A DNA stretch of 48,233 nucleotides from a virus (Duplodnaviria; Heunggongvirae; Uroviricota; Caudoviricetes). Under the pieces are notes generated by a model. That model made no database searches. It was not told where the DNA came from and saw nothing but the letters and a program-made list of their open reading frames with translations. Each line of letters begins with the position of its first letter. Within the stretch, counting starts at the first letter, position 1. This document shows, piece after piece, positions 36,571 through 39,303 of the stretch. The translations under genes were made by a program, and so were the position numbers. Location: the IMG/VR virus record IMGVR_UViG_2974569193_000001, positions 172,702 through 220,934 of that record, one strand, 5' to 3'.

Positions 36571-39303
36571 ATGACCTTCTACCCCATGGAGGACCGGGCC
36601 AAGGCCCGCTCCGTCGTCACCAACCTGCTGGACCTCCAGCGCGAAGCCGTCAAGGTCAGCCGCCAAGGCCTGATCCTGCCGCCCGAGCGCAAGCAGTTGA
36701 TCACCCAGTTGACCGAGACCGAGGATCACACCCGTTGGGTTGACCTGCTGGGCCAGTTCGCCGATCGCGTCCAGACCGATCACCTGAGCCGTCTGAAACC
36801 GATCGCCAAGGACGACTTCAACGCCTTCTGCGAGTACGTCAATCCCGACGAGCCGCCGGCCTCCAAGTGGCACGTCTTCCTGACCGGCACGCTCCAGGAG
36901 ATCGAGAACAATCCCGAGCTTGAGCGCTTCGTGCTCAACTGCCCGCCGGGCCACGCCAAGCCGCTCGACGTCGACACCGAGGTGCTGATGGCTGACGGCG
37001 CCTGGAAGCGCCTGGGCGACATCGTGGTGGGCGACTACGTGGTCGGCGAGAGCGGCGCGCGCTGCAAGGTCACCGCCGTTCACGAGCAGGGCGACCTCGA
37101 CACCCTGAAGATCACCACCGCCCACGGCCGGCAGATCATCGCCGCGCCCGATCACTCGTTCCGGGTCGGTGACGGCTGGAAGCCGGCCGGCAAGCTGCGC
37201 CCTGGCGACGCCCTGTCCGTCGTCGGCGCCGCCAACCTCAACTACGACGCCAGCGGCAAGACCATCGACCACTTCGAGCTTGCCGCCTACCTCCAGGCCA
37301 AGGGCGGGCGCTCCTACTTCCACCGCGTCCACAAGAGCGGGCCGAAGACCTACCGCAACGTCTATCTGTGGACCTCCGATCACCGCGAGGCCAGCCAGAT
37401 CGCCGCGTGCCTCAAGCGCATGGGCATCACCTTCAAGGGTCGTCTGGCCAAGACCGAGAAGGTCTGGAAGATGCGCCTGTCGACCGAGTGGGGCGACGCC
37501 CTGGCCGAGGAGTACGGCCTGGACGCCAAGATCGACGCGCGCCGTGTTCCGGCCTTTGTCACGAAAGGCGACGAGGAGCAGATCGGCCGCTACCTGTCGA
37601 CCCTGACCTCGCTGGCCGGCGAAGCCCCCGAGCGCTACACCATCCCGCGTCTGGTGCTCTACTTCAAGAACCCCGACTTCGCCACCGACGTCCAGCGCCT
37701 GTTCGCCGCCGTCGGCGTCAACGCCCGCATCGAGCCGCGCAAGACCGGCCGCACCCGGCTGCACATCTCCGGCGCGGACCTGGAGGCCTACTTCGCCGCC
37801 GGCCTGACCTACTCCGGCGCCAACGCCGACAAGCTGCCGGCCAAGCGCGCGGCCTTCCCGACCTCGCCCTCGACCCTGGCCGATCACGTCACCTGGATCG
37901 AACCGCACGGCGTGCGCCCCTGCCGCTGCCTGACGGTCGAGAACGAGCACACTTTCATCGCCCAGGGCGTTGTCGTCCACAACTCGACCTACGCCTCGCG
38001 CCTGTTCGTGGCGTGGCGCCTGGGGCGCGATCCGCGCCAGAAAATCATCGGCGGCGGTCACTCCCAGCGCTTCGTCGAGAACGAGTTCAGCGGCAAGATT
38101 CGCAACCTCGTGCGCACGCCTCAGTTCAAGGACGTCTTCCCCGGCGTCGTCATCGACCACGCCACCTCGGCTAAGGACATGTGGGCCATCGCCGGGCACG
38201 GTGGGCAGTACGCCGCCAAGGGCGCTGGGCAAGCCATCCACGGTCTGCGCGCCAACTTCGTCTGCGTCGATGACCCCTATCCGTCGATCCAGAAGGCCGA
38301 GAGCGGGGCCTATCGCGAGGAAGTCCGCACGTGGTTCTTCGGTGACGTTGGCTCGCGTCTGTTGCCGCTTGCCAAAGTATTCCTCATCATGACGCGCTTT
38401 CATGAGGAAGATTTGACGGGTACGATCCTCAAGTACAACCAAGACGCACTTGTGGAGTCGGATCGTTATCACATCGTCGAAGCGCCCGCCCTGTGTTACG
38501 ACCCTGAGAACGACGTCCTCGGCAGGGCGCTCGGCGAAGTTTTGTGGGACTACTATGACTTGCATTACTTCAAACGGAAGCGCTCCGAGTGGAAGTACCA
38601 AAGATTTGCTTTGGTTTATCAACAACTTGCGGACGCGGCCTCGGACACGTCCATCGCGTCTAAGTTCCAGACCTATACGCACCTGCCGCATCTGGAGCCC
38701 AAGACCCTCAAGGCGCGCATGGATGCGGGGCATGTCGACGATCGCGGCCGGCCGATCCCGGACCGCAAGGAGCACTTCCGCCGGGTCGTGACCTCGGTCG
38801 ACGCGGCTCAGAAAAAGGGCGCGCGCAACGACTACACGGTCGTCCAGGTGTGGGGCGAGACCCACGATCGCAAGCACTACCTGATCTACCAGGAGCGCAA
38901 GAAGGTCGAGATCAACGACCTGATCGAGATGGTCGAGCGCATCTCCAAGCGCTTCGACGTCGACTCGATCCTGGTCGAAGACAAGGGCAACGGCACCGCC
39001 TACATCCAGGCGCGGGGCCAGACCGACAGCCAGCGCCGGCTCGCGCCGGCCCCGATCGAGGCGATCCAGGTCCCCAGCACCTACTCCAAGGAGTTCCGCT
39101 TCAACGAGGTCATCCCGATGATCGAGGCGCAAGAGGTCTACCTGCCTGACAAGGCGCCGTGGCTGGACCTGTTCATCCGCGAAGTCGGGCAGTTCCCCGA
39201 AGGCGCCCACGATGACCAAGTCGACGCCATGACGCAGTACCTCCGCTGGGCCAAGTCCAAGCGCTCGCGGTTCGGCGCGCGCAAGGTCGGCTCGATGGGC
39301 TGA
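36571..39303 (+). CDS. terL: terminase large subunit, intein-containing (910 aa precursor, 569 aa if spliced)
   Basis: Walker A PPGHAK|S, Walker B CVDDP, TRFH..DL.G, nuclease motifs SVD..., VEDKGNG, HDDQVDA. Confidence 0.95.
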   Translation: MTFYPMEDRAKARSVVTNLLDLQREAVKVSRQGLILPPERKQLITQLTETEDHTRWVDLLGQFADRVQTDHLSRLKPIAKDDFNAFCEYVNPDEPPASKWHVFLTGTLQEIENNPELERFVLNCPPGHAKPLDVDTEVLMADGAWKRLGDIVVGDYVVGESGARCKVTAVHEQGDLDTLKITTAHGRQIIAAPDHSFRVGDGWKPAGKLRPGDALSVVGAANLNYDASGKTIDHFELAAYLQAKGGRSYFHRVHKSGPKTYRNVYLWTSDHREASQIAACLKRMGITFKGRLAKTEKVWKMRLSTEWGDALAEEYGLDAKIDARRVPAFVTKGDEEQIGRYLSTLTSLAGEAPERYTIPRLVLYFKNPDFATDVQRLFAAVGVNARIEPRKTGRTRLHISGADLEAYFAAGLTYSGANADKLPAKRAAFPTSPSTLADHVTWIEPHGVRPCRCLTVENEHTFIAQGVVVHNSTYASRLFVAWRLGRDPRQKIIGGGHSQRFVENEFSGKIRNLVRTPQFKDVFPGVVIDHATSAKDMWAIAGHGGQYAAKGAGQAIHGLRANFVCVDDPYPSIQKAESGAYREEVRTWFFGDVGSRLLPLAKVFLIMTRFHEEDLTGTILKYNQDALVESDRYHIVEAPALCYDPENDVLGRALGEVLWDYYDLHYFKRKRSEWKYQRFALVYQQLADAASDTSIASKFQTYTHLPHLEPKTLKARMDAGHVDDRGRPIPDRKEHFRRVVTSVDAAQKKGARNDYTVVQVWGETHDRKHYLIYQERKKVEINDLIEMVERISKRFDVDSILVEDKGNGTAYIQARGQTDSQRRLAPAPIEAIQVPSTYSKEFRFNEVIPMIEAQEVYLPDKAPWLDLFIREVGQFPEGAHDDQVDAMTQYLRWAKSKRSRFGARKVGSMG
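36961..37983 (+). mobile_element. 341-aa intein (residues 131-471) with Pro1, block-F Cys and degenerate LAGLIDADG domain
   Basis: PLDVDTEVLMADG...APDH...CRCLTV...HTFIAQGVVVHN|S; removal restores Walker A GHAKS. Confidence 0.92.

What the first reader, a model, noticed from the sequence alone, without database searches (positions are those of the whole stretch)
36961..37983. Non-canonical intein starting with proline inside the TerL Walker A motif
Seen: the insertion splits PPGHAK|ST. Residue 1 is Pro, block B is AxxH (APDHSF) not TxxH, block F has Cys where canonical inteins have Asp (CRCLTV, TGC at 37927), and the end is VHN|S. Established: class 1 splicing needs Cys/Ser at position 1; class 3 inteins use a block-F Cys and typically a Trp-Cys-Thr triplet; KlbA-type class 2 use direct attack by the +1 residue. 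Here only the Cys of the triplet is present (Phe and Val replace Trp and Thr). Since TerL is essential and the catalytic Lys-Ser is interrupted, it presumably splices. Inference: an atypical class-3-like mechanism and a possible redox- or condition-gated switch on packaging. TerL inteins in this phage group have, I believe, been noted, but I know of no mechanistic study.
Basis: partly seen in the sequence, partly recalled or inferred. Interest (0 to 1): 0.75.

Follow-up and report, generated by a model that had tools for sequence, protein, structure and literature searches.

The report
Known proline-first intein in phage terminase
The large terminase gene of this phiCbK-like Caulobacter phage is interrupted in its ATP-binding loop by a self-splicing intein that starts with proline; the intein is real, but it is already annotated, published and catalogued as a rare "FCV" variant of class 3 inteins, and nobody has tested how it splices.

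Summary
A 341-residue intein (36961-37983) splits the TerL Walker A motif PPGHAK|ST. It has Pro1, AxxH in block B, Phe at B:12, Cys at F:4 (TGC at 37927), Val at G:5 and HN|S.

It is not new. The window is 98.5% identical to Caulobacter phage CcrRogue, whose GenBank record annotates the same boundaries. Gill et al. 2012 described P131-N471, noted Pro1 and cited the class 3 paper. Hoffmann et al. 2020 list FCV as the second most common triplet among 1702 class 3 inteins, and their accession list includes CcrRogue TerL.

- The FCV type is a large family (more than 200 clusters at 50% identity).
- Its signature is nearly invariant: P1 / AxDH(P/S)F / CRCLTV / VHN|S-T.
- It sits after the P-loop lysine of TerL, RuvB, DnaB and other ATPases.
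- It never has Trp at B:12. A sampled WCT family never has Phe there.
- In the phiCbK-type TerL clade the homing endonuclease has lost its catalytic aspartates, so the intein looks fixed and vertically inherited.

Splicing through Cys F:4 (class 3 chemistry) is the best-supported mechanism, by inference only. The redox-switch idea has no evidence here. First readers noted the same feature on two related genomes in this scan.

The parts
36571..39303 (+). terL precursor ORF (910 aa plus stop)
   Evidence: 98.5% aa identity to CcrRogue TerL. Terminase_6C domain.
36571..36960 (+). N-extein (aa 1-130), ending in Walker A ...PPGHAK
   Evidence: Aligns to RXM TerL 11-117, ending at the P-loop Lys.
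36961..37983 (+). Intein, 341 aa (P131-N471)
   Evidence: Pfam. Same mat_peptide coordinates in JX100814. Gill 2012. AlphaFold model with pLDDT 93.4 that matches intein-HEN structures, TM 0.73.
36961..36999 (+). Block A region beginning with Pro1 (PLDVDTEVLMADG)
   Evidence: Pro1 in 198/207 family members. 39% identity over 70 aa to the N-half of the Cjw1 class 3 TerL intein.
37126..37167 (+). Block B: Ala62 (B:7), His65 (B:10), Phe67 (B:12)
   Evidence: Alignments to Mtu RecA and Cjw1. H 207/207, A 188/207, F 176/207 and never W.
37243..37860 (+). LAGLIDADG homing-endonuclease-like domain with both catalytic Asp positions replaced (Lys114, Ala219 in intein numbering)
   Evidence: Pfam LAGLIDADG_3. 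Fold kept. Catalytic Asp lost in the PGHAK-TerL clade but kept in the rest of the family.
37918..37965 (+). Block F: Cys321 (F:2), Arg322 (F:3), Cys323 (F:4, TerL C453), in CRCLTV
   Evidence: Alignment to Mtu RecA puts D422 opposite the second Cys. F:4 Cys 205/207, F:2 Cys 195/207, F:3 Arg 184/207.
37963..37986 (+). Block G: Val339 (G:5), His340, Asn341, then Ser+1 (TerL S472)
   Evidence: V 200/207, H 194/207, N 207/207, +1 S/T 205/207.
37984..39300 (+). C-extein (aa 472-910), starting with the Walker A Ser-Thr
   Evidence: Aligns to RXM TerL 118-559. Terminase_6C nuclease domain.

Best explanation
This is the TerL P-loop intein of phiCbK-like Caulobacter phages. It is a full-length intein (HINT splicing domain plus a LAGLIDADG-fold domain) inserted between the Walker A Lys130 and Ser472.

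It most likely splices by class 3 chemistry:
1. Cys323 (block F position 4, TerL C453) attacks the Lys130-Pro131 peptide bond and forms a block-F branched thioester.
2. The N-extein is passed to the hydroxyl of Ser+1.
3. Asn341 cyclises, helped by His340, and releases the intein.
4. An O-to-N shift restores PPGHAK-ST, giving a 569-aa active terminase.

His65 (B:10) would activate the scissile bond. Phe67 and Val339 take the structural places of the Trp and Thr of the usual WCT triplet. The intein belongs to a distinct, widespread 'FCV' sub-family with an extra, nearly invariant Cys at F:2.

In this phage clade the endonuclease active site is dead, so the intein no longer homes and is inherited vertically with terL.

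Shown here: anatomy, boundaries, conservation and family membership. Inferred: every chemical step, and that splicing occurs at all.
For: Boundaries and restoration of Walker A.

The interrupted terL is the only full-length copy in the complete genome. The other hit is the terminal-repeat copy of the 3' part.

Family conservation: P1 198/207, His B:10 207/207, Cys F:4 205/207, Asn 207/207, +1 Ser/Thr 205/207. The two members without Cys F:4 are a class 1 intein (P0089) and a Cys1 outlier.

The splicing sub-domains are under purifying selection. dN/dS is 0.04-0.08 against CcrRogue and 0.19-0.21 against phiCbK.

Kinship with proven class 3 inteins:
- The N-half is 39% identical to the WCT intein at the same TerL site in mycobacteriophage Cjw1.
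- Arg at F:3 is shared (184/207 here, 67/120 in the WCT family).
- Class 3 inteins generally lack Thr B:7.

Published mutagenesis shows W and T are not chemically essential. In MP-Be DnaB, W67F was the best-tolerated Trp substitution and Thr339 substitutions gave only temperature-dependent splicing, while C320A/S killed all activity. T144A in AceL NrdHF only slowed splicing about tenfold, and that intein works with an MCT triplet.

Hoffmann et al. 2020 place these very proteins in their class 3 set and list FCV as a triplet variant.
Against: No FCV-type intein has been shown to splice in any paper I could find. Tori & Perler 2011 was not held.

Two of the three WCT signature residues are absent.

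By sequence profile the family scores better against solved class 1 inteins (NpuDnaB, Ssp DnaB, Mtu RecA, VMA) than against solved class 3 mini-inteins, which fall above E 0.01.

In a splicing-domain tree the WCT clan sits on a long branch (1.38) and FCV lineages form an unresolved grade. Common descent with WCT inteins is therefore allowed but not demonstrated.

I could not obtain model coordinates, so the distances from Cys F:4 to the scissile bond were not measured.
Confidence: 0.8

Rival explanations
1. Class 2 (KlbA-like) splicing. Ser+1 attacks the Lys-Pro bond directly, and Cys F:4 only plays the supporting role that Asp F:4 has in other inteins.
For: There is no N-terminal nucleophile. 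Tori & Perler 2016 state that such inteins could in principle use either route, and that only the F:4 mutation distinguishes them.
Against: Cys F:4 is kept in every non-class-1 member, and Asp never replaces it. The sequence relatives that lack an N-terminal nucleophile are class 3, not KlbA.
Confidence: 0.06
2. A modified or conditional class 3 mechanism that uses the invariant CxC pair. Cys F:2 (C451) might act as a relay or alternative nucleophile, might stand in for the His-polarising Thr G:5, or might form a disulfide or metal site with Cys F:4 that gates TerL maturation.
For: Cys F:2 is present in 195/207 FCV members and 0/120 WCT members, and it co-occurs with loss of Thr G:5. The catalytic Cys of the class 3 DnaBi1 intein is reversibly trapped in a disulfide under oxidative stress.
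Against: A few family members have Thr or Met at F:2 and keep everything else, so F:2 is not obligatory. There is no structural measurement and no experiment. Residues i and i+2 of a beta-strand are poorly placed for a disulfide (my own inference).
Confidence: 0.1
3. The insertion does not splice. TerL either works with the insert or the gene is defective.
For: No direct evidence of splicing exists for this phage group (one search gives bioinformatic evidence only).
Against: The insert splits the Walker A Lys-Ser. It is the only full-length terL in a complete genome of a cultivable phage group. All splicing residues are conserved under purifying selection across relatives down to about 35% intein identity.
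Confidence: 0.03

Closest known systems
TerL intein of Caulobacter phages phiCbK, CcrRogue, Karma, Magneto, Swift and Colossus (Gill et al. 2012, PMC3556154; GenBank mat_peptide features)
   Same: It is the same element. CcrRogue is 97% identical over the intein and 98.5% over TerL, with identical boundaries P131-N471. Pro1 was already noted, with reference to class 3.
   Different: Nothing of substance. The paper did not discuss the missing Trp and Thr, the F:2 Cys or the dead endonuclease.
Class 3 inteins with the WCT triplet (MP-Be DnaB, Msm DnaBi1, mycobacteriophage TerL1-a such as Cjw1 gp8)
   Same: No N-terminal nucleophile (MP-Be DnaB also starts with Pro and is also 341 aa). Cys F:4, His65 at B:10, no Thr at B:7, Arg often at F:3, Ser/Thr +1, insertion after the P-loop Lys, LAGLIDADG domain.
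   Different: Phe replaces Trp at B:12 and Val replaces Thr at G:5. Cys is present at F:2, Leu replaces Ile at F:5, and Pro1 and Ala B:7 are nearly fixed. The two signatures do not mix in 207 versus 120 sequences, and the WCT clan is a separate, long-branched group.
'FCV' triplet class 3 inteins catalogued by Hoffmann et al. 2020 (PMC7891396, Tables S1 and S4)
   Same: The same triplet. Their accession list holds YP_006989360.1 (CcrRogue TerL) and YP_007001261.1 (CcrMagneto intein).
   Different: They counted 7 such sequences and did not comment on them. Metagenome databases hold more than 200 clusters at 50% identity, in several ATPase families.
AceL NrdHF split intein (MCT triplet)
   Same: A class 3 intein that lacks the Trp yet is shown to splice by the class 3 route.
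   Different: It is split, keeps Thr G:5, lacks the penultimate His, and has a different host protein.

Membership tests
Intein (HINT splicing domain) | Blocks A, B, F and G with His B:10 and a C-terminal Asn followed by a Cys/Ser/Thr, and removal restores the host protein | tested here: met
   Pfam PF14890 above its cut-off. Alignment to solved inteins. Removal restores a contiguous Walker A, as in intein-less TerLs. Model matches intein structures.
Class 3 intein | No Cys/Ser/Thr nucleophile at intein position 1 | tested here: met
   Pro1 (CCG 36961-63), conserved in relatives.
Class 3 intein | Cys at block F position 4 | tested here: met
   Cys323, placed opposite Mtu RecA D422. 205/207 in the family.
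Class 3 intein | Trp at block B position 12 (W of the WCT signature) | tested here: not met
   Phe67. Never Trp in 207 family members. The literature treats this Trp as structural, and W67F is partly functional.
Class 3 intein | Thr at block G position 5 (T of the WCT signature) | tested here: not met
   Val339. V in 200/207. Thr substitutions are tolerated in two studied class 3 inteins.
Class 3 intein | [quoted passage not shown] | tested here: met
   Ser472. S/T in 205/207.
Class 3 intein | Operational definition of Hoffmann et al. 2020: no Cys at the N-end and Cys at C2:4 | tested here: met
   Definition. The near-identical CcrRogue TerL accession is in their class 3 list.
Class 3 intein | Mechanism: obligate block-F branched thioester intermediate | not testable with these tools
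   Needs mutagenesis and detection of the intermediate. No published test for any FCV-type intein was found.
Class 2 (KlbA-type) intein | Ala1, Asp at F:4, and direct attack by the +1 residue (taken as Cys+1 here) | tested here: not met
The intein has Pro1, Cys F:4 and Ser+1. Ala1 and Asp F:4 for KlbA come.
Active LAGLIDADG homing endonuclease | Catalytic acidic residue at the end of each of the two LAGLIDADG motifs | tested here: not met
   Lys114 and Ala219 stand where 141/168 and 135/168 of the more distant family members have Asp.

The most novel reading that the evidence does not exclude
FCV/CRC inteins could be a mechanistically distinct sub-class of class 3. The nearly invariant Cys at F:2 might replace the Thr G:5-His B:10 interaction, or might pair with the catalytic Cys F:4 as a redox or metal switch. 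That would make terminase maturation, and therefore DNA packaging, conditional. The fold-preserved but catalytically dead endonuclease domain might be retained for a new role.
Probability: 0.12. Interest if true: 0.6.

Novelty: already known. Interest (0 to 1): 0.3.

Why it matters
For this window it matters little. The intein, its boundaries, its Pro1 and its class 3 assignment are already in GenBank and in two papers.

The wider family is a useful natural experiment. More than 200 diverged inteins keep Cys F:4 but have swapped the Trp and Thr thought to typify class 3 for Phe and Val, and have gained a second Cys. Testing one of them would show which parts of the WCT signature are chemistry and which are lineage history. 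The phiCbK/Caulobacter system is tractable for this. It could also supply new splicing scaffolds with Ser/Thr +1.

Tried and rejected
- Upstream Cys of NCPPG as the true intein start: rejected, because intein-less TerLs keep PPGHxK|ST contiguous.
- Pro1 as a sequencing error: rejected.
- A second, intein-free terL in the genome: none. The second hit is only the terminal-repeat copy of the 3' part.
- Placing the family by phylogeny: the splicing-domain tree gives a well-supported WCT clan and a class 1 clan (97/97), with FCV lineages as an unresolved grade between them. This fits a single origin of Cys-F:4 inteins but does not root it. The class 1 sample (12 sequences) was small and biased towards FCV-like sequences.
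- An extein-based database search failed on time. I used the phage collection instead.
- Tori & Perler 2011 (J Bacteriol) could not be read.
- The Bethlehem record as held shows no 341-aa DnaB intein host, so Cjw1 gp8 served as the WCT reference.
- dN/dS at the larger distances (Bajun, Colossus) is unreliable because of saturation.
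Full report
**What is there.** The window is the right-hand 48 kb of a 220,934-bp phage genome with direct terminal repeats. The ORF at 36571-39303 (+) encodes a 910-aa protein. It is 98.5% identical to the large terminase precursor of Caulobacter phage CcrRogue and about 87% identical to that of phiCbK.

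Residues 131-471 (nt 36961-37983) match Pfam Intein_splicing (E 3e-10, above the cut-off), Hom_end_hint and LAGLIDADG_3. They also match solved inteins, best the Mtu RecA intein. An AlphaFold model of the intein with ten flanking residues on each side is confident (pLDDT 93.4, pTM 0.91). It superimposes on full-length intein/homing-endonuclease structures such as TliVMA, with TM 0.73.

**Boundaries.** BLAST of the precursor against the intein-less TerL of Citromicrobium phage RXM gives two pieces. TerL 36-130 aligns to RXM 11-117, and TerL 472-910 aligns to RXM 118-559, so the two pieces abut in RXM. The spliced sequence PPGHAK-ST aligns with PPGHCKST, PPQHGKST and PPRHGKSM of intein-less terminases.

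The intein is therefore exactly P131-N471. The upstream Cys of NCPPG cannot be the start, because that would delete the Walker A motif. The same coordinates are annotated as a mat_peptide in GenBank JX100814.

All are correct.
- Pro1 is CCG at 36961.
- Alignment to Mtu RecA puts APDH opposite TPDH, and the second Cys of CRCLTV opposite Asp422.
- Alignment to the class 3 TerL intein of mycobacteriophage Cjw1 puts AAPDHSF opposite ASDHHLW.
- So B:7 is Ala62, B:10 is His65, B:12 is Phe67, F:2 is Cys321, F:4 is Cys323 (TerL C453, TGC at 37927), G:5 is Val339, followed by His340-Asn341 and Ser+1.

**Already known.**
- Gill et al. 2012 (PMC3556154) described this intein in all six phiCbK-like phages. 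They gave P131-N471, noted that the N-terminus lacks Ser/Cys, and cited the class 3 paper for functional Pro1 inteins.
- The class 3 prototype, the MP-Be DnaB intein, itself begins with Pro1, is 341 aa long and sits in a P-loop. Tori et al. 2010 already listed phage terminase large subunits among the hosts of such inteins.
- Hoffmann et al. 2020 (PMC7891396) defined class 3 as no Cys at the N-end plus Cys at C2:4. Their Table S1 shows WCT 1685, FCV 7, and a handful of others among 1702 inteins.
- Their accession list contains YP_006989360.1 and YP_007001261.1. I verified these to be the CcrRogue TerL precursor and the CcrMagneto intein.

The FCV deviation is thus catalogued, but it was not discussed. 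I found no experimental study of any FCV-type intein in the held library. Tori & Perler 2011 was not available.

**The family.** Searches with the intein alone found 87 proteins in the word-indexed database. In the exhaustive search of 50%-identity representatives they found 1295 at E<=1e-3, of which 284 were at E<=1e-10. Among 207 extractable inteins the signature is almost invariant:

| Position | Residue and count |
|---|---|
| -1 | Lys 191 |
| 1 | Pro 198 |
| B:7 | Ala 188 |
| B:10 | His 207 |
| B:11 | Pro 175 |
| B:12 | Phe 176 (otherwise I, V, Y, L, M, H; never Trp) |
| F:2 | Cys 195 |
| F:3 | Arg 184 |
| F:4 | Cys 205 |
| F:5 | Leu 190 |
| G:5 | Val 200 |
| G:6 | His 194 |
| G:7 | Asn 207 |
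| +1 | Ser 167, Thr 38 |

Hosts are terminases of two Pfam types, actinobacterial RuvB, DnaB and other ATPases. The insertion is always after the Walker A Lys.

A family of 120 inteins gathered around the Cjw1 TerL intein shows the opposite, equally clean signature:

| Position | Residue and count |
|---|---|
| 1 | Ala, Gly or Pro |
| B:12 | Trp 120/120 |
| F:2 | Thr or Val, never Cys |
| F:4 | Cys 120/120 |
| G:5 | Thr 118/120 |

The two share Arg at F:3, His65 spacing, Ser/Thr +1 and the insertion site.

**Relationship to WCT inteins.** This is not settled.
- The N-half is 39% identical to Cjw1.
- The family profile nevertheless scores solved class 1 inteins better than solved class 3 mini-inteins.
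- In a maximum-likelihood tree of the splicing domain, WCT inteins form one long-branched clan (100/100). Twelve class 1 inteins form another clan (97/97). Eleven of these were taken from second insertion sites of the same proteins, and the twelfth is P0089. FCV lineages form an unresolved grade between the two clans.
- This allows a single origin of Cys-F:4 inteins but does not prove it. The class 1 sample is small and biased.

**Mechanism.** I infer class 3 chemistry through Cys323. The grounds are:
- There is no N-terminal nucleophile.
- Cys F:4 is conserved in every member that is not class 1.
- The +1 residue is Ser/Thr, a weaker nucleophile than Cys for a direct (class 2) attack on an amide.
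- Published mutagenesis shows that only Cys F:4 and His B:10 are chemically indispensable. In MP-Be DnaB, W67F gave about half splicing at 30 C and more than 90% at 15 C, and Thr339 changes were only temperature-sensitive, whereas C320A/S abolished everything.
- In AceL NrdHF, T144A slowed splicing about tenfold, and that intein works with Met at B:12.

Splicing is presumably required because the interrupted gene is the only full-length terL in the genome. The splicing sub-domains are under purifying selection, with dN/dS 0.04-0.08 against CcrRogue and 0.19-0.21 against phiCbK. None of this has been shown experimentally.

**The redox idea.** The redox or conditional switch remains speculation. 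The only support is the precedent of Msm DnaBi1, whose catalytic Cys118 is trapped in a disulfide under oxidative stress, plus the presence here of a second, family-specific Cys two residues upstream. A few family members replace that Cys with Thr or Met, so it is not obligatory.

**Endonuclease.** Outside the closest terminase clade, 141/168 family members keep the catalytic Asp of LAGLIDADG motif 1 and 135/168 that of motif 2. In the 39 members whose N-extein ends PGHAK, including this phage, the counts are 0/39 and 7/39. Here the residues are Lys114 and Ala219.

The fold is still predicted with high confidence. Between close relatives the domain is still constrained, with dN/dS 0.16 against CcrRogue and 0.41 against phiCbK. 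The intein therefore looks immobile, fixed and co-inherited with terL across the Dolichocephalovirinae and related metagenomic phages.

**Verdict.** The class-3-like reading is supported by comparison, and the switch is unsupported. The finding itself is already known: it is annotated, published and catalogued. First readers noted the same feature on two related genomes in this scan.

What remains open is a biochemical test, for which the wider FCV family defined here gives a clear set of residues to mutate.

Noticed in passing
window 37243-37860 (intein residues about 95-300): The LAGLIDADG domain has lost both catalytic Asp residues (Lys114, Ala219). The same is true across the whole PGHAK-type TerL clade (0/39 and 7/39 keep Asp, against 141/168 and 135/168 elsewhere). 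Even so, the fold is predicted confidently and dN/dS is 0.16-0.41 between close relatives. This is a dead endonuclease domain that is retained rather than deleted.
   Followed up: partly
proteins P0010 (aa 130-815) and P0018 (aa 130-812), metagenomic TerLs: Two inteins lie back to back at the same Walker A site. A WCT-type class 3 intein (D1...GHEW...QCIEV...TPTHN) is followed immediately by an FCV-type intein (P1...CRCLTV...VVVHN|STYAS). The +1 residue of the first intein is Pro1 of the second, so the FCV intein would have to splice first to give the WCT intein its Ser+1.
   Followed up: partly
window about 38525-39303, and G000:C1:3-776: In the CcrRogue, phiCbK, Karma and Magneto records the terminal direct repeat begins inside terL, at nt 1955 of the gene. 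In the window's own genome the last 258 codons of terL are present again at the left end.
   Followed up: no
G000:C1:84618-84779 (-), outside the window: A second, weaker intein match lies in a 955-aa ORF. It is probably the class 1 ribonucleotide reductase intein that Gill et al. 2012 describe.
   Followed up: no
family members P0027-P0029, P0034-P0037, P0041, P0047, P0055-P0057, P0068: FCV-type inteins sit in the Walker A (GPPGLGK|T) of RuvB in Micromonospora, Actinoplanes and Plantactinospora. These copies keep intact LAGLIDADG motifs, so the family is also chromosomal in actinobacteria.
   Followed up: no
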